DNA from: an uncultured delta proteobacterium
GTDB lineage: Bacteria; Myxococcota_A; Polyangia; Polyangiales; Polyangiaceae
DNA length: 64,000 nt
Assembly (NCBI GenBank): GCA_963782055.1
Contig: CAWAIF010000003.1
Location: forward strand, 2,688,001 to 2,752,000
Direction of reading: 5' to 3'
Of this stretch, positions 37,102 through 54,786 are shown one piece after another. The stretch's first letter is position 1. Every line of letters starts with the position of its first letter. The notes under the pieces are model-generated. The model saw nothing but the letters and a program-made list of their open reading frames with translations, was not told the DNA's origin and searched no databases. The position numbers were made by a program, and so were the translations under genes.

Positions 37102-37515
37102 CTACTCCTGGTCTGGGAACACCTCGATCGCGAGACGTACGCCAAGGCGAGCCATTTCCGTCATGCAAGCATTCGAAATGATGAACCCCGCATTCTCGCG
37201 CCCAACCAACCCCAGGTAAAGCTCGCAACTGCCACCGGTCTCTACAAAGTTGTGCAACCATTGCTCGTTCTCCCCCAGGCGACGTGTCCATTCGCCAATC
37301 AGCTGCTCCATGTCACATGGCTTGGACAGTTCGCCACACCAGTACGTTTCTCCGTATCGACCTGTCAAGGGGCGATCCTTTGGGGTTCGCCGCTCAGTTC
37401 CAGCTCTCCAAGAAAAACGAGGCTGAAGGCCGAGCCTACTTGTGACTTCTTCTGGGGCTATGCTCGGGTGCGTCAGGCGACAGGCGACGCTGTTGGGAGG
37501 GCATCTCGATATCAT
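37102..37515 (-). CDS. DUF4279-like putative immunity protein
   Basis: HPSIAPEEVTSRLGLQP..SWRAG..R.TP....L.GRY.ETYW pattern; ATGA overlap with the upstream toxin-tip ORF; more A/T-rich than host genes. Confidence 0.7.
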   Translation of the reverse strand: MISRCPPNSVACRLTHPSIAPEEVTSRLGLQPRFSWRAGTERRTPKDRPLTGRYGETYWCGELSKPCDMEQLIGEWTRRLGENEQWLHNFVETGGSCELYLGLVGRENAGFIISNACMTEMARLGVRLAIEVFPDQE

Positions 37516-37753: not shown

Positions 37754-37804
37754 GCGCATAGGAAATCCTAGCGCGGTCGGGCGCGAAAGTTTACGAAATC
37801 CATC
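37754..37804 (-). repeat. oriIS-like 100-bp repeat R1 (left half only; interrupted)
   Basis: gcgcataggaaatcctagcgcggtcgggcgcgaaagtttacgaaatccatc, identical to the left half of R2. Confidence 0.9.
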
Positions 37805-39007
37805 TTGGACGAAGCCGCTGCGCGGCAGCGTGGCTCCGCATCAAGCACGCTGGCGAGCCGGGAGCCTCGCGAGCGTGTGCGCGCTGGCGAGTCCGCCTCG
37901 TAGCCCTCGCGTGCCGTGACGCGGGCGATCCTGCGGCGCGCGCCGCCCGCTCGTGGGCGCGCGCGGAGCCAAAGGAGGCCGCGATGGGTGCGAAGCGAAG
38001 ACTGCGGGACACGATGAGCGAGGACCTCGCGCTGCGAGGGATGAGCGCCAACACGATCGCCACGTACGTGGGTGCGTGAGGCGGTTCGCGCAGTACCACG
38101 GGCGGTCGCCGTGCGCGCTGGGGGCGGCGGAGATCCGTGCGTTCCTCTTGCACCTGGTGGCGGAGCGCAGGCTGGCGGCGCTGACGGTCAACGTGCACGC
38201 GGCCGCGCTGAGGTTTCTCTACGAGGTGACGCTGGAGCGGCCGGAGGCGACGCTGGGGGATGGCGCGCATGCGGGTGCCGATGCACGTGCCGGTGGTGCT
38301 GACGAGCGCGGAGGTGGCGCGGCTGCTCGCGGCGCTCACGAGCCACAAGCACCGGGCCCTGGTGATGCTCGCCTACGGGGCGGGGCTGCGCGTGAGCGAG
38401 GTGTGCAAGCTCCGGGTGGACGACATCGATCCGAAGCGGATGCTCCTGCACGTGCGGCACTCCGCCAGCCACGCCACCACGCGCCTCGAGACCGCTCGCC
38501 GCAGACTGGGTCCGCACGCGGCGCCCGCTGCGCGACCGGTGCGCCGTGTCGACGCCGCCGACCTGCTGCTGCGAATCGCGGGCATCGACCTGCACCGCTG
38601 CCCCGCTTGCCACACGCCTGCCCTCGTGCGTACCGCGCTGCCGGAGCCCCGAGCTCGCGACCCGCCGGGGGCCGCATGATCTCCCCGCGTCGTGCTCCAC
38701 TGCGCTCGCTCCACGAGTGCGGCCCAGGCCCCTGTCCATCCACGCCACGAAAACCCGGCCTCCGAGCACGCACGGCTGCCCGCTGCGCGCTCCGGGACGC
38801 CCGCGTCGAGCGCCGTCCCGCCGCCCGCTCCGCACCTCGCGCACCCGCGCCCGTGACCCACACGCCGCCAACTTCCCCATAGGGCTCCGAGGCCACCGCC
38901 TCGCCGCTGCCGCGCACCGGCTTCGTCCAACCGTCGATTTCGCGACCGCGCACCCGCGCCACGCGACCGGCGTCACGACCCGGCGCGCTCACGCAATCGA
39001 CTCTTAC
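37805..39007 (+). mobile_element. Internally deleted copy of the integrase + Y2-transposase element
   Basis: Near-identical to 40949-43469 except for a ~1.3-kb deletion joining int (cgtgcggcac) to late tnp (tccgccagcc) at a GCAC microhomology. int is frameshifted at G-runs ~38070 and ~38255. Both ends are intact. Confidence 0.9.
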
Positions 39008-39016
39008 TTATGGTAA

Positions 39017-39432
39017 ATGCCGCGCCGCATCATCGCTGGCGTGCGGTTCCTCGACGCGCGAGCCACGGTGGTCGGGCACTTCCCTGCTCGTCAGGAGGTG
39101 ATCGAGCTGGCCGCGGACGTCACCGTCTTCCTCCGGCGGCAGCTCAACCAATGGAAGAGCGCGCGAGGGTACGGGCGTCGCGTCCAGGGTCAGCAGGGTG
39201 AGCGGTGGGCGGCCGCGCTCGGCCTCTCCCGCGACGCCGACCTGTGCGACCGACTGGAGCGCTGGTGGGGGACGGGCGAGGTCGCGCTCCAGGAGGTGAC
39301 GCGGGACGGCGGCGCGGTGCTCAGCCCGGCCCGCTTCGACGAAGGCTTCGACGGTCGCTTCACCTTCCTTTGGACGACCAGCCAAGCCCAGCTCCAGCGC
39401 TACGCGCGTCAGCTCCAGCTCGATCCCGAGGC
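39017..39432 (+). other. Probable gene fragment of unknown function, ending at the 121-bp repeat
   Basis: Protein-like ORF (MPRRIIAGVRFLD...QLQLDPE) that reads into the repeat. Confidence 0.35.
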
Positions 39433-39553
39433 TGAGCCTCCCCGAAGACGAGGAGATGGTAGCATCGAGGGTGCGTACGGGGCCCGCGGGCGGCGCAACC
39501 GGACATGATGGATGCTAGCGAACCCAGATCGAGGGCCAATCTGGCTTATCCAC
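39433..39553 (+). repeat. 121-bp direct repeat, copy A
   Basis: tgagcctccccgaagacgaggagatggtagcatc...gagggccaatctggcttatccac; about 3 mismatches versus copy B. Confidence 0.9.
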
Positions 39554-39579
39554 TTCGCCAATGGTGAGGAGGTTTTCGC

Positions 39580-39972
39580 ATGGAGATCAAGGCGCTGCTC
39601 GGGGCGGAAGATCCGGGGGAGCTCGCCGAGGCGGCGATGGACCTCGCCGACGCGCTGGCGGCGCTCGCCGACGCGAAGGGCCGGCCGGGGCTCGCGCCGC
39701 CGGTGGACGTCGCGTACCGCGTGGTGCTTGCGGACGGCGCGATGAACAACGATGGCGCCCGAGCGCTCATCGATTCCGGCATCCCCGCGGAGGAGCTCCT
39801 CTCGGCGCTGCGCGAGATCGGCGCGCCGAAGATGGCCGAGATTCTCGCTGGCGCCCTGGCCGAGCCCGACGACGCCGCGGCGCTCGACCGGTGGAGCGCC
39901 TATCCGGACTACCTCGAGGGGCTGCTCGTCGACTGGGTGACCCGCCATCGCGCGGCGTTCGAGTCCGCGTAG
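39580..39972 (+). CDS. DMP19/DUF4375-like acidic protein (possible immunity protein or DNA mimic)
   Basis: GAGGAGG RBS; DGAMNNDG, ALREIGA, LEGLLVDWVTRHRAAF pattern. Confidence 0.6.
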   Translation: MEIKALLGAEDPGELAEAAMDLADALAALADAKGRPGLAPPVDVAYRVVLADGAMNNDGARALIDSGIPAEELLSALREIGAPKMAEILAGALAEPDDAAALDRWSAYPDYLEGLLVDWVTRHRAAFESA

Positions 39973-40070: not shown

Positions 40071-40191
40071 TGAGCCTTCCCGAAGACGAGGAGATGGTAG
40101 CATCGAGGGTGCGCCCGGGGCCCGCGGGCGGCGCAACCGGACATGATGGATGCTAGCGAACCCAGATCGAGGGCCAATCTGGCTTATCCAC
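40071..40191 (+). repeat. 121-bp direct repeat, copy B
   Basis: tgagccttcccgaagacgaggagatggtagcatc...gagggccaatctggcttatccac. Confidence 0.9.
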
Positions 40192-40432
40192 ATCGCGTCC
40201 TTGATCTTGGTCAGCCCCCTTCTGGGCGCACCCCATCGGGGGGCAGCGGCGCGGGTCGTCAGCGCCGCCACGGCTGTCGAAGGTGCCGCGGGGCTCGGCT
40301 CCGCGGTCCTCGACCCCGGGCACCCGGCGCGGCGGAGGCCATGACGCCCGGTCCGCGGCAGTCGACGCCCGCTGGAGGCTGGACAGCCGGCGGACACCCG
40401 TGGTTTTTTCCACGCACTTCGCGAGGTGCTCC

Positions 40433-40915
40433 GTGCACAAGCTGCTTGCAATCTCCCTGGTCGCATCGCTGGCGGCGTGCTCGGGCAGCTCGACCCCGTC
40501 CGGCTCCACGGGCTCGGCCTCGACGAGCGGCTCCGGCACCACCGGCGCGAGCTCCAGCGGCTCCACCGGCACCAGCAGCACCGGCGGGAGCGGTGGCTCC
40601 ACCGGCGGCGTGCCGCCAGGGGGCAAGCGGATCTTCCTCACCTCGTCGACCTACGAGGGCGGCGCGCTGGGCGGGGTCAGCGGCGCGGACCAGAAGTGCA
40701 CCCTCTCGGCCCAGGCCGTGGGCCTGAGCGGCACCTGGATCGCGCTCGTCTCCGGACTGGACCGCATCAGCGACGTCGGCCCCTGGTACCTGCTCGACGG
40801 CACCAAAGTCTTCAACAACAAGGCCGGGCTCTCGACCACGCCGTTCGCGGTGATCAGCATCGACGAGCGCGGCGGCGCGCACGCGGGCGACGAGCAGGCG
40901 CATAGGAAATCCTAG
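40433..40915 (+). pseudogene. DUF1554-like lipoprotein, 3'-truncated at repeat R2
   Basis: LAAC lipobox, Ser/Gly/Thr linker, KRIFLTS...GGVSGADQKC...GPWYLLDG...IDERG; the frame runs into the repeat and stops before the usual WTG half of the domain. Confidence 0.75.
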
Positions 40916-40948
40916 CGCGGTCGGGCGCGAAAGTTTACGAAATCCATC
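40898..40948 (-). repeat. oriIS-like 100-bp repeat R2, left half
   Basis: Together with 43470-43518 it reconstitutes the uninterrupted R3 sequence. Confidence 0.92.
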
Positions 40949-41128
40949 TTGGACGAAGCCGCTGCGCGGCAGCGTGGCTCCGCATCAAGCTCGCTCGCGA
41001 CCCGGGAGCCCCGCGAGCCGTGTGCGCGCTGACGAGCCCGCCTCGTAGCCCTCGCGTGCCGTGATGCGGGCGATCCTGCGGCGCGCGCCGCCCGCTCGTG
41101 GGCGCGCGCGGAGCCGAAGGAGGCCGCG

Positions 41129-41974
41129 ATGGGTGCGAAGCGAAGACTGCGGGACACGATGAGCGAGGACCTCGCGCTGCGAGGGATGAGCGCCAACACG
41201 ATCGCCACGTACGTGGGGTGCGTGCGGCGGTTCGCGCAGTACCACGGGCGGTCGCCGTGCGCGCTGGGGGCGGCGGAGATCCGGACGTTCCTTTTGCACC
41301 TGGTGGCGGAGCGCAGGCTGGCGGCGCTGACGGTCAACGTGCACGCGGCCGCGCTGAGGTTTCTCTACGAGGTGACGCTGGAGCGGCCGGAGGCGACGCT
41401 GGGGATGGCGCGCATGCGGGTGCCGATGCACGTGCCGGTGGTGCTGACGAGCGCGGAGGTGGCGCGGCTGCTCGCGTCGCTCACGAGCCACAAGCACCGG
41501 GCCCTGGTGATGCTCGCCTACGGGGCGGGGCTGCGCGTGAGCGAGGTGTGCAAGCTCCGGGTGGACGACATCGATCCGAAGCGGATGCTCCTGCACGTGC
41601 GGCACACCAAGCGCGGGCGTGAGCGCTACGTGATGCTCAGCGCGAGGCTGCTGGCGACGCTGCGCGCGTACTGGAAGGCGTCACGACCCGCAGGACCGCA
41701 ACTGTTTCCGGGGCGCGTGCCCGGGACGCTCCTCACGCGCGCGGCCGTCCACCGGGCGATCCTCAAGGCGGCGCGGCGCGCGGGCATCACCCGGCGCGTG
41801 TCGCCGCACACGCTGCGCCACAGCTTCGCCACGCACCTGCTCGACGCAGGGACCGACCTTCGCACGTTGCAGGTCTTGCTCGGGCACGCGTCGCTCAGGA
41901 GCACGATGGCCTACCTGCACGTGAGCACCGCCCGCGTGCAGTCGATTCAGAGCCCCCTCGACGCGCTGCCCTGA
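41129..41974 (+). CDS. Tyrosine recombinase (N-terminal SAM-like + XerD-like catalytic domain)
   Basis: GLRVSE (R), TKRGRER (K), HTLRHSFATH (HxxR), LLGH, STMAY (Y); AAGGAGG RBS. Confidence 0.95.
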   Translation: MGAKRRLRDTMSEDLALRGMSANTIATYVGCVRRFAQYHGRSPCALGAAEIRTFLLHLVAERRLAALTVNVHAAALRFLYEVTLERPEATLGMARMRVPMHVPVVLTSAEVARLLASLTSHKHRALVMLAYGAGLRVSEVCKLRVDDIDPKRMLLHVRHTKRGRERYVMLSARLLATLRAYWKASRPAGPQLFPGRVPGTLLTRAAVHRAILKAARRAGITRRVSPHTLRHSFATHLLDAGTDLRTLQVLLGHASLRSTMAYLHVSTARVQSIQSPLDALP

Positions 41975-41980
41975 GCCCCG

Positions 41981-43141
41981 ATGCACCCGTCGTGTGCGCC
42001 CGCGCGCACGCGCGCGGCGCCCATCGAGCTCGCGGACGTGGTGCGCGCCCACGGCGAGGCCTTCGCCGGCGGCCGCGTGCTGCGTCCCGAGGAGCGGTCG
42101 GCGCTGCGGGCGATCGAGCGATGCCGGACCGCCGCGCTGGGCGGACATCTGGACGTGTGCACCGCGTGCGGGCTCGAGCGACCGTCGTACAACTCGTGCC
42201 GCAACCGGCACTGTCCCAAGTGCCAGTCGCTCGCGCAGGCGCGGTGGGTCGCCACGCGGCTCGAGCGCATTCTGCCCGTGCACTACTTCCACGTCGTCTT
42301 CACGCTCCCCGCCGAGCTGCGCGCCGTCGCGCGGCGCTCGCGCGCGCGGGTCTTCGACATGCTCTTCGCGAGCGCGGCCGACACGCTGGCCACCCTCGCG
42401 CGGGATCCGAAGTGGCTCGGCGCCGAGCTCGGCGTCACGATGGTCCTGCACACCTGGACGCGCGCGCTGCTCTTCCACCCCCACGTGCACGCCATCGTCA
42501 CCGGCGGCGGACTCACCGGCGACGCCGCGCGCTGGGTGCGCGCGCGCCGTCGCTTCCTCTTCCCCGTGCGCGTGATGGGCGCGCTCTTTCGCGGCAAGAT
42601 GCTCGCCGCTCTCGAGCGCGCCCACGCGCGCGGCCTCGTCGACCTGGGCGGCGTCGACCTGCTGGCGCTCCGACGCAAGGCCTGGGTCGTCTACGCCAAG
42701 CGACCCTTTGGCGGCCCCGCTCAGGTCATCCGCTACCTCGGTCGCTACACGCACCGCGTCGGCATCTCCAACCACCGCTTCGTCTCGATGGGCGAGCGCG
42801 GCGTCACCTTCCGCACCAGAGACGGCAAGTCGGTCACCGTCCCGGCCGAGGAGCTGCTCGCGCGCTTCGTCCAGCACGTGCTGCCGCGCGGCTTCGTCAA
42901 GATCCGCCACTACGGCCTGCACTCCGCCAGCCACGCCACCACGCGCCTCGAGACCGCACGCCGCAGACTGGGTCCGCACGCGGCGCCCGCTGCGCGACCG
43001 GTGCGCCGTGCCGACGCCGCCGACCTGCTGCTGCGAATCGCGGGCATCGACCTGCGCCGCTGCCCCGCTTGCCACACGCCTGCCCTCGTGCGCACCGCGC
43101 TGCCGGAGCCCCGAGCTCGCGACCCGCCGGGGGCCGCATGA
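41981..43141 (+). CDS. IS91-family Y2 HUH transposase with N-terminal Zn finger
   Basis: CRTAALGG..C..C...YNSCRNRHCPKC; HPHVH HUH motif; YLGRYTH (Y-x3-Y); GFVKIRHYG. Confidence 0.95.
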   Translation: MHPSCAPARTRAAPIELADVVRAHGEAFAGGRVLRPEERSALRAIERCRTAALGGHLDVCTACGLERPSYNSCRNRHCPKCQSLAQARWVATRLERILPVHYFHVVFTLPAELRAVARRSRARVFDMLFASAADTLATLARDPKWLGAELGVTMVLHTWTRALLFHPHVHAIVTGGGLTGDAARWVRARRRFLFPVRVMGALFRGKMLAALERAHARGLVDLGGVDLLALRRKAWVVYAKRPFGGPAQVIRYLGRYTHRVGISNHRFVSMGERGVTFRTRDGKSVTVPAEELLARFVQHVLPRGFVKIRHYGLHSASHATTRLETARRRLGPHAAPAARPVRRADAADLLLRIAGIDLRRCPACHTPALVRTALPEPRARDPPGAA

Positions 43142-43386
43142 TCTCCCCGCGTCGTGTTCCACTGCGCTCGCTCCACGAGTGCGGCGCAGGCCCCTGTCCA
43201 TCCGCGCCACGAAAACCCGCCCTCCGAGCACGCACGGCTGCCCGCTGCGCGCTCCGGGACGCCCGCGTCGAGCGCCGTCCCGCCGCCCGCTCCGCACCTC
43301 GCGCACCCGCACACGTGACCCACACGCCGCCAACTTCCCCATAGGGCTCCGAGGCCACCGCCTCGCCGCTGCCGCGCACCGGCTTC

Positions 43387-43475
43387 GTCCAACCGTCGAT
43401 TTCGCGACCGCGCACCCGCGCCACGCGACCGCCGCCGCGACCCGGCGCGCTCACGCAATCGACTCTTACTTATGC
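43387..43475 (+). other. attC-like imperfect hairpin recombination site
   Basis: GTCCAAC (RYYYAAC), then gtcgatttcgcgaccgcgc ... gcgcgctcacgcaatcgac (inverted pair), then C|TTATGC. Same structure at 38925-39013. Confidence 0.6.
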
Positions 43476-43518
43476 GAAGTGGGGCCGTCCGGTGTCACTG
43501 GAAGGACGGACCAGGGTG
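43470..43518 (-). repeat. oriIS-like 100-bp repeat R2, right half
   Basis: ttatgcgaagtggggccgtccggtgtcactggaaggacggaccagggtg. Confidence 0.92.
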
Positions 43519-44867: not shown

Positions 44868-46271
44868 GTGCAGCTCGGGGGCGTGGCCGGCGCGCCGTTC
44901 GTCTACGAGAGGCGACACCCCGAGGGCACCACGCTCTACGCGGTGGTGCGCGACAACGTCGAGACCCTCTACGCCGCGGTCGCCGAGAGCGGCCTCACGC
45001 TGCCCGCCTTCGTGCGCCAGGAGCTGGAGGGCTACCTGGACTGCGGCCTTCTCTGCCGGGGCTTCGCGCACCTCAAGTGCGAGGAGTGCGGCGAGCGGCG
45101 CGTTGTCGCCTTCGCGTGCAAGGGCCGGGGATTCTGCCCGTCGTGCATGGGGCGGCGCATGGCGCAGACGGCGGCCAACCTCATGGAGAGCGTGCTGCCG
45201 GAGGCCCCGCTGCGGCAGTGGGTGCTCACCATGCCGCACGCCATCCGGCATCGCCTCGCGTACAACGCCCCGCTGCTCGGCAAGGTGACGCGCGCCTTCC
45301 TCGCGACGGTGGTTGCATTCTACAAGAAGCGGGCGGGCGCGAGCGGCTGCGTCGCCGTCGTGCAGCGCACCTCGAGCGATCTCAAGCTCAACCCGCACGT
45401 GCACGCGGTGTTCCTGGACGGCGGGTACGTCGAGGTGGACGGCGAGCCGCGCTTCCGCGCCCTCGGCCACCTGCGAGGTAGCGAGGTCGCCGAGGTGCTC
45501 GCGAGGGCGCGCCGCCGCATCGAGCGGCTGCTCGCCCGCGCCCAGGAGCGTGCCGACGACGAGGACGTGCAGCCGATGCTCACCAGCGTGCGCGGCCACC
45601 CGCCCGCCGGCCCCGCGCTCCGCCGCGGCGCGACCTTCGGGGTGGGCTCCTCGCGCGCCGAGCTCTGCGCCCAGGACGAGGGCTTCAACCTGCACGCCGC
45701 CACCCGCGCCGGCGCCCTCGACGCCGCCGGGCGCGAGGCCCTCTTGCGCTACATCCTGCGTCCCCCCGTCGCCCAGGAGCGCATCGTCGCGGGACCGGAC
45801 AACCTGGTGCGCATCGCGCTCAAGAAGCCCTTCTCCGACGGCACCGTCGCCGTCGACATGGACCCCCTCTCGCTCCTCTTACGCCTCTGCGCCGCCGTCC
45901 CCGCGCCGCGTTTTCATACTGTCCGCTACGCCGGCGTGCTCGCGTCCGCCAGCAAGGTGCGCCCCAAGATCGTCCGCCGTCCACCCGACCCGGCGACGGC
46001 GACAGAGCACGACGACAAGCCGAAGCGCTCGCGCTACTGGCCGTGGGCGGAGCTCATGGCCCGGACGTTCGCGGTGGACGTGCAGAGGTGCCCGAAGTGC
46101 GAGGGCCGCATGAAGCTCGTGGCGATGGTGCAGGAGCCGCGCGGGATCAAGAGGTTCCTCGAGGGGCTCGGCGAGCCGCACGAGGTCCCGCCGCGCGCAC
46201 CGGCCCGCGCTCCTCCCTATTATCGCAGCGCCGTCATCCGCCGGATCGCCGGCGCCATCGTCGCCGCCTGA
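44868..46271 (+). CDS. IS91/ISCR-like rolling-circle transposase, apparently intact
   Basis: YERRHPEGT, CGLLCRGF..C..C...FACKGRGFCPSC, RQWVLT, NPHVH HUH motif, GFNLHA, LLRYILRP, RFHTVRYAG. Confidence 0.92.
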   Translation: MQLGGVAGAPFVYERRHPEGTTLYAVVRDNVETLYAAVAESGLTLPAFVRQELEGYLDCGLLCRGFAHLKCEECGERRVVAFACKGRGFCPSCMGRRMAQTAANLMESVLPEAPLRQWVLTMPHAIRHRLAYNAPLLGKVTRAFLATVVAFYKKRAGASGCVAVVQRTSSDLKLNPHVHAVFLDGGYVEVDGEPRFRALGHLRGSEVAEVLARARRRIERLLARAQERADDEDVQPMLTSVRGHPPAGPALRRGATFGVGSSRAELCAQDEGFNLHAATRAGALDAAGREALLRYILRPPVAQERIVAGPDNLVRIALKKPFSDGTVAVDMDPLSLLLRLCAAVPAPRFHTVRYAGVLASASKVRPKIVRRPPDPATATEHDDKPKRSRYWPWAELMARTFAVDVQRCPKCEGRMKLVAMVQEPRGIKRFLEGLGEPHEVPPRAPARAPPYYRSAVIRRIAGAIVAA

Positions 46272-50675: not shown

Positions 50676-50775
50676 GCGCATAGGAAATCCTAGCGCGGTC
50701 GGGCGCGAAAGTTTACGGAATCCATCTTATGCGAAGTGGGGCCGTCCGGTGTCACTAGAAGGACGGACCAGGGTG
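50676..50775 (-). repeat. oriIS-like 100-bp repeat R3 (uninterrupted, empty target site)
   Basis: gcgcataggaaatcctagcgcggtcgggcgcgaaagtttacggaatccatcttatgcgaagtggggccgtccggtgtcactagaaggacggaccagggtg. Confidence 0.93.
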
Positions 50776-51475: not shown

Positions 51476-53139
51476 TTACCTCTTCTTCTTCCGCCGGCGT
51501 CCGCCCGTCTTCTGGCGCCCGCCGTCATACCCAGTCTTGGCATGCGTTTTGCGATCCACAAGCTGAAGCGTTCGCCCGTCCTGGTGATGGTGCCACGTCA
51601 GGCCGGTGATCCTGGCTTCTTCGTTCTCGATGTCGTCCAGTTGCTGCTTCGTAAATCGCCGACGCTTCCGAGGGTCCTTCTCTAGGGCCTTCTTCAGATC
51701 GCGCGTGGCAAATTTCATCTGCGAGTCATCGGAAACAGATGGATTGCACATACGCTTCGGAAGCTTCTTGTTGTGAAGAGAATCGAATACAGGGTTTCCA
51801 GTCTTGTCGAACCGAACACCCGTCTTCTTGTGTCGCTTGCCGGCCATTTTCATCCGTGCAAGACCGAACGGATCGATGTCATGCGTCGGAGATCCGTCGA
51901 ACCGGAAGGCGTTCGAGTCACCATCTAGACCGAGCGGATCGGGACTCAGCCACCGCATTGTGTCTGGGTCCCAGTATCTATGCCGGACGTATTCAAGTCC
52001 TTCTTCGCAGTCGATGTAGTGCCCCTGAAGGCCGAAACTGAGCCCGTCAGACGCCTTCGTGCCACCCCAGACCGAAAGGTCGTCGCGCTCCAACACTTGG
52101 CCGGACGAGTGGACACCTCCCGTGACCGTCGCCACTGGGTCCTTCAAGTGCTGCACCCAGCGGCCATCGACGCGCTCGGCAACGGGCTCGATTCCGTCGT
52201 CCTCGAAGAGGTATGCTCGTTCGTCGACGATCTCGTCGCCGTTTTCCACCGCCCTTCGCCGCACTTCGTGTGCTAGCGCATCGCCGTCCCACACGAAGCG
52301 CGTGGTTGTCCCGAACACGCGGTCGCCCTCGGTTTCGGCCACTCGCTTTTCTATCCGTCGGGCGAACGGGTCGTACGAAAACTCGACATGCTTCCCATCC
52401 GGTGTGTCCACTTTCTGCAGCAGCCCCGCACCGTTCCACCCATACTGCCACACGCGCTCACCGCTCTCGGTGATTTCGCGCTTGCAAGAGAGCCGACCGT
52501 CACCGTCCCACTCGTATTGCGTGTTCCCCTTCTGCAGCAGTCGGTTGCCTCGGCCATAGCGGCGTTGTGGATCCTTGTCCCCGGCTTCGTAGATGTTGCC
52601 GGCCGGGTCGTACCGGAATACCTCTTCTCGTGCCTTGGCCGGGACCGAAGCCAGCAATTGCCCGACCGGGTCGTATCGGTACTCGGTCTTTCCCCGCCGT
52701 AGATCGTTCTTCTCAATCAGCTCTCCGTCCAGGTCGTACTGGTACGTGGTGTAGGAAGTAACGCCTTCGGGCATGCCCCCAACCCACTCGGGCTCGTCGG
52801 GTCCGGCGGATCGATGCTTTGCGGGAGAACGGACAACGCGTTGGGCAAGACGCCCCATGCGGTCGAAGCCGCTCTCCAGCATGCCTCCGCCCGGCAGGCG
52901 ACGTTGGACCTCGCGGGACAAGATATCGTTGACGTGGTCGATCTGATGGTTCCCGTCGAGCAAGGTACGGACTCGCGCGCCCATGGCATCGCGCTGGACA
53001 CGCTCGGTGTGACCAAGGCTGGTCTCACGGTAGCTGCGCTCGCCTGCAGGTTCATACGTGACGGCGACCCATTGGTCCGTGCCCGCGACGTTCTGGCTCT
53101 CACGGACGATGCGGCCCAACGCGTCGCGTTCGAAGCGGA
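51476..53139 (-). pseudogene. 5'-truncated RHS protein with C-terminal WHH (HNH/EndoVII) nuclease domain
   Basis: YD repeats, RHS core (QGHYID.EEGLEY.RHRYWDP...WLSPDPLGL..DPFGL), TWHHHQD..LQLV...H; the frame begins abruptly at R4. Confidence 0.88.
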
Positions 53140-53239
53140 GCGCATAGGAAATGCTAGCGCGGTCGGGCGCGAAAGTTTACGAAATCCATCTCATGCGAAG
53201 TGGGGCCGTCCGGTGTCACTGGAAGGACGGACCAGGGTG
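53140..53239 (-). repeat. oriIS-like 100-bp repeat R4, native position 38 bp downstream of the IS91-like transposase
   Basis: Same sequence as R3 with a few substitutions (aatgctagc, catctcatgcg). The minus strand ends ...TTTCCTATGC, resembling IS91/ISCR oriIS. Confidence 0.92.
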
Positions 53240-53277: not shown

Positions 53278-54786
53278 TCAGGCGGCGGGGGGGGCGTCTG
53301 CGGCGAGGTCGAGGAGGTCGGTCGGATCGCGGGCGCGGGCAGGTGCGGGGGCTTCGGCGGGGAGGTCGAGAGCGCGGAGGATGCGGACCACGGCGGCGTC
53401 GTCGGTGATGACGGCGAGGGGACGGAGGCGGCCCCCGCAGGTCGGGCACTGGAGCACGTCGATCTCGAAGGTGCGGCGGAGCAGGCGCGGCCAGTCGATG
53501 CGGGATGTCGCTGCGTAGAGAAGGCCGCGGCGAAGGCGCTCCCAGTGGCCCACGGCGACGACGTTGGGTGCGAGACGGCGCACCTGGAGGTCTGCGGCGG
53601 CCGCGGGTGCGGCGGTCTCGGGCGCGGGTGGCGGGACTGGGAGGGGGAGGGCGAGCTGGCCCGCGGGCGGCGCGCTCGTGGTGCTGGCCGCCCCCGCGGG
53701 ATCGCGGCGCACGGGGTCGGGCCTCTCTGCCGCATGTGTGGTGTCGCGATGCGCCCGCCTCTCGATGGGCTGCCCGGGTTTCGCGGGGACGAGGGGGCGC
53801 GAAGGACGCGGAGGCCCGCAGGACGGGGCGGACGGCTCACGCGGCCTGGGGACCACGAGCTTTCGCCACGACAATCGGGGGGCGAGGACACCGTGGTAGC
53901 GGACAAGTGGGTAGCGCGGCGGCGGGACGAGCGCGGCGACGCGGGCGAGGAGCTCCACCGGAGTGAAGATCATGTGCTTCGCCTTGCCCGCGCGCGGCTG
54001 CTTGACGCGGTAGGCGACGCGGCCGTCGCGCAGGAGGCGTAGGCGCGAGAGGGCGAGCGCGGGGCGCAGGGCGTAGCGGCAGAGGCGCTCGCGGGCGAGA
54101 TCGTCCCGGACGCGGACGCCGGCGTGGAGGTTGAAGCCGGTGTCCTCCACCGCGCGGTGAGCCATGGCGGGGGCGGCTGCGTCGTCGTCGTCGTCGCCGC
54201 CGGGGTCGATCGCGAGCTTCAGCACCTTCGGGCGCTGCATCGCGAGAGCCACGCAGGCGTCGAGGGCGCTCGGCTCGACGTCGAGGTCCACCGGATCCTC
54301 GGAGAGGTGACCGTGGCGGCGGAGCCACGCGATGGCGCGACGGCTGACGGCGGTGACGAGCTGCTGCAGCTCGGCGCGGGTGGGCGCCGGCAACGGCACG
54401 AAGCCGAGGGCGCCGCTGGCCGCGTCCTCGAAGCCGACGGCGCGGGCGCGCCGGCGGTGGCTGGCGAAGATGGCGTCGGCGAAGATGCGCGCGAGCGCGC
54501 GCAGCACCACAGGGTCGAAGGCGGCGAGGCGGCGGAGCTCGTACGGCAGCGAGAGGACGTACTGGCGGAGGGGGACGTCCGGGAGCACGCGGTCGACCAG
54601 GTGGGCGGCGGTGTTCGCCATGCGACGGCCGGCGCAGCTCGGGCAGACGCTGCGGCCCTGCAGGAGAAGGCGACGAGCAGATCGTGGCCGCAGGTGTCGC
54701 ACCGGGCGCGGAGGAAGCCGTGGCGGAAGACGCCGCACCTCCACCCTTGGGGCGGCCGGGTGGCCCCGGAGAGCCAGGCAGGACAC
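53278..54786 (-). pseudogene. Decayed IS91/ISCR-like transposase
   Basis: CGVFRHGF..RC..CG....VAFSC | frameshift | GRSVCPSC..RMANTAA..RQYVLS, GFNLHA, RLCRYALRP, VRYHGVLAP. The HUH segment and most of the N-terminus are missing. Confidence 0.88.

What the first reader, a model, noticed from the sequence alone, without database searches (positions are those of the whole stretch)
40898..43518. One mobile element targets the ori hairpin of another at a fixed C|TTATG site
Seen: R3 is the empty site (catc|ttatgcg). R2 holds the 2.5-kb int/Y2 element exactly there, with no target duplication beyond the shared CTT, and R1 has the same left junction. The target lies in an inverted pair CGCATAGG...CTTATGCG that resembles an attC R''/R' pair (GCATAAC...GTTATGC). 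R4 has a substitution at the crossover (catctcatgcg) and is unoccupied. Inference: the int/Y2 element parasitises the single-stranded ori hairpin of the IS91-like array, and R4 may be an escape variant.
Basis: partly seen in the sequence, partly recalled or inferred. Interest (0 to 1): 0.7.

Follow-up and report, generated by a model that had tools for sequence, protein, structure and literature searches.

The report
Jumping gene invades dif-like sites
A 2.5-kb mobile element with its own recombinase inserts again and again into copies of the host's chromosome-unlinking (dif) site that a second mobile element carries in its end repeats, a targeting route not found in the papers searched.

Summary
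Observation confirmed, explanation changed. The int/Y2 element (40949-43469) is site-specific: in this genome 13 of 14 left ends and 12 of 13 right ends lie at one position of a ~100-bp repeat, and copies with identical left ends sit in six repeat alleles, so insertions were independent. The repeat is the 3' end of an ISCR-like element. The target is most likely not the attC-like hairpin (fold z -0.8, pair missing in relatives) but a 28-bp dif-like site inside the repeat that matches 19 of 22 arm bases of the host's own dif. The crossover is N|TT at the arm/central boundary; only TT is always shared. In the same bacterial family 16 of 85 junctions have an Xer-like arm in exact register (controls 3 of 2040), at either arm; most junctions have none. 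The element's predicted circle junction folds strongly (z -11). Likely mechanism (inferred): Y2 makes a single-stranded circle, the element's IntI-like recombinase exchanges one strand. R4 as escape variant is unsupported (p 0.54). This scan noted the same element family before, at attC sites and palindromes, not at dif-like sites.

The parts
37754..37804 (-). R1: outer half of the ~100-bp repeat (ori-like end, XerD-like arm, central 6 bp)
37805..39007 (+). Decayed int/Y2 element at R1 (frameshifts in int, ~1.3-kb internal deletion), about 97.5% identical to the R2 copy
39008..39018 (+). Right flank of the R1 element, TTATGGTAAAT: outside any repeat, 8/11 identical to either arm of the host dif
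   Evidence: 731 of 261,365 TT sites reach 8/11
40898..40948 (-). R2 outer half; XerD-like arm at 40932-40942, central 6 bp at 40943-40948
40949..43469 (+). Intact int/Y2 element, 2,521 bp, from TTGGAC to TCTTAC
40949..40973 (+). Left end: 11-bp arm (7/11 to the repeat's XerC-like arm, 6/11 to the dif arm) plus short palindrome
41129..41974 (+). Tyrosine recombinase, 281 aa, IntI/Xer-like, R136-K161-H227-R230-H253-Y262 present, IntI insertion absent
41981..43141 (+). IS91-family Y2/HUH transposase, 386 aa (HPHVH 166-170, YLGRY 252-256, zinc domain)
   Evidence: (NF033538 389.7 bits, cut-off 125)
43337..43344 (+). CCCCATAG motif, conserved family-wide about 125 bp inside the right end; candidate Y2 nick site (inference)
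43368..43392 (+). Internal inverted copy of the left end (24/25); pairs with the left end in a single-stranded circle
43395..43469 (+). Inner stem-loop (43395-43463) and 6-nt unpaired spacer TCTTAC that ends the element
   Evidence: z -3.3
43470..43518 (-). R2 inner half; XerC-like arm at 43470-43480
50676..50775 (-). R3: empty repeat; dif-like 28-mer at 50710-50737 (ACTTCGCATAA GATGGA TTCCGTAAACT on the minus strand)
53140..53239 (-). R4: empty repeat with TGA in place of TAA in the XerC-like arm (28-mer at 53174-53201); it is the 3' end of the host element
53281..54743 (-). Host ISCR-like Y2 transposase gene, broken here (frameshift, N-terminus not found); intact copies at C3:4409725-4411449 and 5265302-5267020

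Best explanation
The int/Y2 element is an IS91-family element with its own IntI/Xer-like recombinase that integrates into tyrosine-recombinase core sites (arm, 6 bp, arm). In this genome its target is a dif-like site that an unrelated ISCR-like element carries in its last 100 bp and has spread as about 35 mini-repeats. SHOWN: fixed position and orientation in this genome, independent insertions, likeness of the target to the host's dif, crossover at the arm/central boundary (N|TT), and a conserved foldable junction. INFERRED: the Y2 protein releases a single-stranded circle (bottom strand); the left end pairs with its internal inverted copy and the inner stem forms a second arm, giving an attC/CTX-attP-like substrate; the element's recombinase cuts after the AA of the element arm and of the target arm and swaps one strand; replication resolves the junction. 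One exchange at that point predicts both junctions seen: the left keeps the target's whole central 6 bp, the right always ends in the element's TCTTAC. Confidence about 0.85 for dif-like targeting, lower for the catalytic steps.
For: Junction tables. Unique canonical dif at C3:3558740-3558767, 43 kb from the cumulative GC-skew maximum at 3,515,445; in 15.2 million positions the only sites within 5 arm mismatches of it are dif itself and 21 repeat copies, 18 of them at 3 mismatches. XerD over cut-off, XerC-like at 322 of 335 bits. Arms stay while the central 6 bp vary (TCCATC, TCCCTC, CCCATC, CACACG; CGCCCG in G004; GCCGCG in G027). Copies identical over 290 nt sit in six repeat alleles, five matched by empty copies; a 77%-identical element sits at the same position. 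G004 and G027 have their own, otherwise unalike dif-cored repeats with the element at the same TT. Same bacterial family: 16 of 85 junctions with at least 8/11 to a dif arm in exact register, 3 of 2040 at shifts of 2-25 nt; both XerC-like and XerD-like arms occur on the left. Distant relatives: AA ends exactly 6 bp before the junction in 16 of 53 left ends, background 5.9%. Predicted junction fold z -11.2; natural tandem-dimer junctions in L065 and L114 z -5.8 and -5.2. int sits directly upstream of the transposase in 74 of 79 loci.
Against: No activity was tested and no free circle was seen. 69 of 85 family junctions and 43 of 53 distant ones show no strong Xer arm, so dif-like sites are one target class among several. 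G004 type c (2/11) and the G019 left flank (3/11) lack a XerD-like arm, and one G004 right end is followed by 11 extra bases before the XerC-like arm. The chromosomal dif itself, which also contains CTTATG, is empty. The recombinase lacks the I2 insertion that IntI uses to handle folded single strands (PMC4792948). The base next to TT does not follow one pairing rule across elements. Relatives are not independent samples.
Confidence: 0.6

Rival explanations
1. IMEX-like: host XerC or XerD, not the element's int, catalyses integration of the folded circle, as for CTX phage; int serves only excision or resolution.
For: The target is nearly the host dif and the crossover lies at the arm/central boundary; the genome encodes XerD and a XerC-like protein; CTX integrates through a ~150-bp folded strand using XerC alone (PMC5357621, passages).
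Against: The element arm is only 6/11 like the dif XerC arm and is conserved in elements whose targets are not dif-like; either arm is used (L192); int is intact and present in 74 of 79 loci.
Confidence: 0.15
2. One reading: the Y2 transposase (or int) recognises a single-stranded, attC-like hairpin of the host element's ori and inserts IS91-style at a CTTA-like tetranucleotide.
For: CTTG at the left end and CTTA at the right resemble the IS91 target 5'-CTTG (PMC13181058); the repeat is the ori-side end of a Y2 element and may be single-stranded during its transposition; a group II intron uses the same junction.
Against: The hairpin is not significant and not conserved in occupied repeats of relatives; the base before TT follows the target on the left and the element on the right, which puts the cut inside the tetranucleotide; about 50 of 81 CTTATG hexamers lie outside repeats and junctions and are empty; an arm 6 bp away on the far side of the joint is enriched.
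Confidence: 0.15
3. Hitch-hiking: one old insertion into a mini-repeat, then spread of the composite by the host transposase, with gene conversion blurring alleles.
For: The mini-repeat is itself mobile, with sharp ends and unrelated flanks; halves are sometimes mismatched (divergent left with canonical right at C3:6191409/6184037), so recombination between copies occurs.
Against: Identical elements in six alleles, among them a divergent repeat type, and a second element lineage at the same base; the same register in unrelated repeats of G004, G027, G223 and G343. It may still explain some copies.
Confidence: 0.05

Closest known systems
IS91-family elements with an upstream tyrosine recombinase (ISShvi3-like; 'Integron-like' recombinase subgroup)
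   Same: int plus IS91 transposase; recombinase close to IntI but lacking its insertion (bioRxiv 10.1101/542381). ISShvi3 was seen next to an attC site (PMC9229058). Annotated int/IS91 pairs occur on plasmids.
   Different: No dif-like target, end architecture or mechanism in the passages read. I did not compare the sequence with ISShvi3 itself.
IS91, IS801, IS1294 (canonical rolling-circle IS)
   Same: Y2/HUH transposase, no target duplication, unlike ends with palindromes; the bottom single-stranded circle is the active intermediate in IS91 (PMC13181058).
   Different: They need only a tetranucleotide next to oriIS and have no recombinase; here the joint lies inside NTTN and depends on an arm-6 bp-arm context.
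IS1202 family, ISAba32/ISAjo2 subgroup (xrs-targeting IS)
   Same: Targets dif and pdif sites in fixed orientation (bioRxiv 10.1101/2022.12.17.520857; PMC10132070, listing only).
   Different: DDE transposase, inverted repeats, 5-bp duplication, inserts 5 bp outside the XerC arm and leaves the site intact; this element splits the site at the strand-exchange boundary.
IMEX (CTX, VGJ, TLC phages, GGI)
   Same: Integration into dif-type sites; CTX uses a folded single strand and one strand exchange (PMC5357621; PMC4792948).
   Different: IMEX borrow XerCD and go to the chromosomal dif; this element encodes a recombinase and occupies accessory dif-like sites while dif stays free.
Integron cassette insertion (attC x attI) and attC-targeting elements (IS1111-attC, group IIC-attC introns)
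   Same: N|TT crossover, folded donor with paired AAC/GTT-like core and a bulge; a group II intron hits the same junction.
   Different: The attC-like partner is the element's own junction, not the target; no IntI in the genome.
pdif modules of Acinetobacter plasmids
   Same: Many dif-like sites flanking short gene modules.
   Different: pdif sites are inversely repeated; here sites are mostly direct repeats on the chromosome and each is embedded in the end of an ISCR-like element.

Membership tests
IS91 family | Y2/HUH transposase | tested here: met
   NF033538 389.7 bits over cut-off 125; PF04986, PF14319; motifs
IS91 family | No target-site duplication | tested here: met
   only TT is shared at both junctions
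IS91 family | Insertion 5' of a CTTG/GTTC-type tetranucleotide next to oriIS | tested here: not met
   G|TT left with C|TT right at C3:6199920/6197404 puts the joint inside the tetranucleotide
IS91 family | Rolling-circle intermediates, one-ended transposition | not testable with these tools
   tandem dimers in L065 and L114 fit but do not prove it
int-bearing IS91 group (ISShvi3-like) | IntI-related recombinase without the IntI insertion, upstream of the transposase | tested here: met
   best NCBIfam hit TIGR02249, 198.9 bits, under cut-off 265; profile positions 180-238 unmatched; 74 of 79 loci
Xer recombination site (dif/xrs), for the target | Two 11-bp arms around a variable 6-bp centre, like the host dif | tested here: met
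   19 of 22 arm bases; no non-repeat site within 5 mismatches
Xer recombination site (dif/xrs), for the target | Host encodes XerC and XerD | tested here: met
   XerD 343.5 over 329.6; XerC-like 322.1, just under 335.15
Xer recombination site (dif/xrs), for the target | Bound and recombined by XerCD | not testable with these tools
   needs binding and recombination assays
attC site / integron array, for the target | Significant bottom-strand hairpin with R and L boxes | tested here: not met
   z -0.2 to -0.8
attC site / integron array, for the target | Integron integrase in the genome | tested here: not met
   0 of 31 matches over cut-off; genome 97% complete
IMEX | No own integrase; relies on XerCD | tested here: not met
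   intact int; dependence on XerCD untested
IMEX | dif-like attP with a XerC arm | tested here: inconclusive
   folded junction predicted, arm only 6/11 to the dif XerC arm
IS1202 family, ISAba32 subgroup | DDE transposase, 5-bp duplication, insertion 5 bp outside the XerC arm | tested here: not met
ISCR-like element, for the host of the repeat | Y2 transposase with the repeat as its 3' (ori-side) end | tested here: met
   three copies end in the repeat; NF052416 275.6 bits, under its cut-off 925; about 40% identity to ISVsa3 and ISCR1 transposases

The most novel reading that the evidence does not exclude
These elements are self-contained, integron-like recombination systems: a rolling-circle nuclease supplies a folded single-stranded attC-like junction and an IntI relative without the I2 domain integrates it into double-stranded Xer-type cores, the kind of intermediate proposed for the origin of integrons (PMC4792948). 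Alongside, the host's ISCR-like element seeds direct arrays of dif-like sites that XerCD uses as a cassette-shuffling platform, which the int/Y2 element and a group II intron parasitise in turn.
Probability: 0.25. Interest if true: 0.85.

Novelty: new variant of a known kind. Interest (0 to 1): 0.63.

Why it matters
The role of the recombinase in int-bearing IS91 elements was not explained in the papers I could read. Here the junctions give a testable answer with a defined 28-bp target and a defined folded donor. It also shows a dif-like site built into the end of an ISCR-like element and multiplied into chromosomal arrays in several genera, a possible Xer-driven gene-shuffling route outside Acinetobacter pdif modules. 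An IntI relative without I2 that acts on folded single strands would bear on how integrons arose.

Tried and rejected
attC-like hairpin at the target: not significant. Integron integrase: none over cut-off. Escape by TCAT: p 0.54; TGA alleles also occur among empty repeats of G027, too few occupied sites to test. R1 as a recent duplicate of R2: different outer flanks, 97.4% identity, own indels. 'Internal guide' idea (base before TT pairs with the internal arm): fits G004, fails for 10 of 11 left ends here. A loose right-end pattern over 201 genomes gave 33 places fetched, of which only 2 were real ends, neither at an Xer-like arm. The right-end classifier returned nothing; right ends were then read by hand. 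dif-like sites behind ISVsa3 and ISCR1: none above background (10 mismatches). Rfam: nothing in the window. Earlier-findings look-ups by place, by sequence and by dif words were empty. No structure prediction, complex prediction or read mapping was run.
Full report
OBSERVATION. The window lies at C3:2688001-2752000 of a 7.58-Mb, 72% G+C genome. R2 is split by a 2,521-bp element (40949-43469) that encodes a tyrosine recombinase (PF00589 and SAM domains) and an IS91-family Y2 transposase. R3 is the empty form, R4 carries T>C in the arm and is empty, and R1 has the same left junction. R1's element is a decayed copy, 97.4% identical over its first 663 nt, with frameshifts and a 1.3-kb deletion, and its right end is not followed by the repeat but by TTATGGTAAAT.

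SITE PREFERENCE. A genome scan found 14 left ends and 13 right ends. Eleven left ends directly follow the outer half of the repeat. The other three follow the 5' end of a group II intron; for two of these the intron's far end abuts a repeat half, and for the third it abuts the element's internal arm. Twelve of 13 right ends are followed by the inner half (one with an extra T). About 20 repeats are empty. Seven copies whose first 290 nt are identical sit in six different repeat alleles, one of them a divergent repeat type, and five of these alleles have matching or closely matching empty copies; a second element lineage (77% identical over 290 nt) sits at the same base. Independent insertion is therefore the simplest reading, although halves have also been reassorted. 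The copy in the divergent repeat has G|TT on the left and C|TT on the right, so the crossover lies after the base that precedes TT; the shared C at R2 is incidental. The hexamer CTTATG occurs 81 times; by my count about 33 are in repeats or junctions, so the hexamer alone does not explain the choice.

WHAT THE REPEAT IS. Three copies of the repeat are the last 100 bp of an element whose transposase is ISCR-like; the copy at R4 is broken, those at C3:4409725 and 5265302 are intact. The others are free-standing, sharply bounded on both sides, clustered and mostly co-oriented. The outer end reads CCTATGCGC on the coding strand; that this resembles IS91 oriIS ends is my recollection, not a call. 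The base beyond it is a pyrimidine in 31 of 33 copies.

THE TARGET IS DIF-LIKE. On the minus strand the insertion site reads ACTTCGCATAA GATGGA TT(T/C)CGTAAACT. One canonical dif-type site was found in the genome, AATTCGCATAA GATACA TTATGTAAACT at C3:3558740-3558767, 43 kb from the cumulative GC-skew maximum. Eighteen empty repeats differ from it at 3 of 22 arm positions; apart from dif, all 21 sites within 5 mismatches are repeat copies. XerD passes its cut-off and a XerC-like gene falls just short. A dif site is two 11-bp arms around a 6-bp centre that defines strand cleavage and exchange (PMC5357621, passages). The element's joint falls exactly on the boundary of the XerC-like arm and the centre. 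R1's stray right flank matches either dif arm at 8 of 11, a level reached by 731 of 261,365 TT sites.

OTHER GENOMES. G004 and G027 have their own ~100-bp repeats that share little but the dif-like core, and related elements sit at the same TT. In G004, G027, G223 and G456 such a core lies about 115-170 bp behind an ISCR-like transposase. A left-end pattern matched 83 of 383 genomes of the family, G000 included (150 places listed, 56 not). I used 27 of the 30 loci returned (three were already counted) and 60 more places picked from the listing, exact matches first. They gave 85 distinct junctions; internal arms, one intron-interrupted end and likely chance hits were left in. Sixteen of 85 match a dif arm at 8/11 or better in exact register, against 3 of 2040 at shifts of 2-25 nt. 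The left arm is sometimes XerC-like and sometimes XerD-like, and in G019 a right end joins a XerD-like arm, so either half-site is used. In five such genomes a separate intact site with a GATACA or GATATA centre remains in four. Against a general rule: 69 of 85 junctions show no such arm. Among more distant relatives (79 loci; 74 with int directly upstream), AA ends exactly 6 bp before the joint in 16 of 53 left ends, background 5.9%, and 10 of 53 reach 7/11 (one intron row and two dimer rows dropped, one target counted twice, kin not independent). Other targets include a tRNA-like sequence (L052, read by eye).

THE ELEMENT'S OWN ENDS. The left 25 nt recur inverted 77 nt inside the right end, followed by a stem-loop and six unpaired bases. 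The script could delimit 33 right ends, 30 with an inner stem of 10 nt or more made of different sequences (ends without a stem were skipped, so this is not a rate); 20 of 600 random positions give such a stem. The predicted circle junction folds at -66.3 kcal/mol (z -11.2), and natural tandem-dimer junctions in L065 and L114 fold at z -5.8 and -5.2. So the attC-like partner is the donor, not the target. The recombinase has all six catalytic residues, scores best against integron integrases and lacks their insertion, as reported for recombinases of IS91 elements (bioRxiv 10.1101/542381, passages).

MECHANISM. Shown: position, orientation, independence, dif likeness, joint register, conserved fold. 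Inferred: Y2 releases the bottom strand as a circle, as for IS91 (PMC13181058, passages); the fold rebuilds a two-arm site; int cuts after the AA of donor and target arms and swaps one strand; replication resolves it, as in cassette insertion and CTX integration (PMC4792948, passages). This predicts that the left junction keeps the target's centre and the right always ends in TCTTAC, which holds for all ends (one with an extra T). Rivals: XerCD catalysis (0.15), Y2-driven insertion at a single-stranded ori (0.15), hitch-hiking (0.05). The lack of I2 is a real difficulty for the single-strand step.

R4. Zero of 3 TCAT copies are occupied against 12 of 32 others (p 0.54). A change in the conserved AA could lower binding, but nothing here shows selection for it.

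COMPARISON AND NOVELTY. int-bearing IS91 elements are known; one was noted beside an attC site (PMC9229058, passages). IS1202-family elements target xrs but insert 5 bp outside them (bioRxiv 10.1101/2022.12.17.520857, passages; PMC10132070, listing). PMC12772301 (passages) reports attC sites behind ISCR28, not dif-like sites. Ten searches showed no paper on an IS91-type element inserting inside dif-like sites or on dif-like sites in ISCR-like ends; 'dif-like' with 'IS91' gave 0 papers. I judged most hits from listings only; subscription papers, ISfinder, TnPedia and preprint supplements were not searchable, so prior description cannot be excluded. This scan noted the same element family at attC sites and at palindromic repeats in other genomes; these notes are unchecked leads and count as no support.

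VERDICT. Real, repeated, site-specific parasitism of one element by another, with a different target than proposed. New variant of a known kind; interest 0.63.

Noticed in passing
G000 C3:5212702-5216047, 6186555-6191356, 2272361-2274252; L037 (G035); L287 (G494): All three copies of a group II intron in this genome (reverse transcriptase ORF) are inserted on the bottom strand at CTTCGTCCA|A in the int/Y2 element's arm; the same placement is seen in two other genomes. Class IIC is my reading from recall. A third layer of targeting.
   Followed up: partly
L148-L176, L141, L143, L329, L335: dif-like sites behind the transposase are common in this ISCR-like clade: 8 of 25 loci with at most 8 arm mismatches downstream against 0 of 22 upstream controls (six loci lacked downstream DNA; two of the 8 look doubtful).
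   Followed up: partly
G000 C3:4411-4487 kb, 5176-5266 kb, 2725-2741 kb, 6168-6200 kb: Arrays of mostly direct mini-repeats separate unrelated cargo. The outer flank of one repeat (4437718) and the inner flank of another (5244628) are contiguous at a repeat-free site (5250693-5250811), which suggests halves were reassorted by recombination inside the repeats. One head-to-tail repeat dimer at 4433479/4433379.
   Followed up: partly
L066, L067, L074, L080, L088, L090, L096, L097, L117: In some lineages the two bases at the left joint vary even between copies in one genome (TT, AT, CA, AA, GA), like coupling sequences.
   Followed up: no
window 44868-46271: A second, intact-looking ISCR-like Y2 transposase of another family, with many fragments in the genome; no dif-like site was found near its end.
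   Followed up: no
window 51476-53119 (-), 39580-39972, 37102-37515: Cargo between repeats includes an Rhs C-terminal fragment with a WHH/colicin-type nuclease, cut off at R4, and DMP19-like and DUF4279 genes: polymorphic-toxin and immunity-type content.
   Followed up: no
window 39433-39558 and 40071-40196: A 126-nt direct repeat (97%) flanks the DMP19-like gene between R1 and R2.
   Followed up: no
L034 (G004:C8:56852-59370): The element's right end is followed by 11 extra bases that partly repeat the left flank, before a TCAT-type XerC-like arm; unexplained.
   Followed up: no
G223 (L300, L323, L328, L333-L335): Five pattern matches with near-perfect dif arms and the centre GATAGC, most at contig ends, in a repeated unit; one related site holds an int/Y2 left end at the XerD-side TT.
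   Followed up: partly
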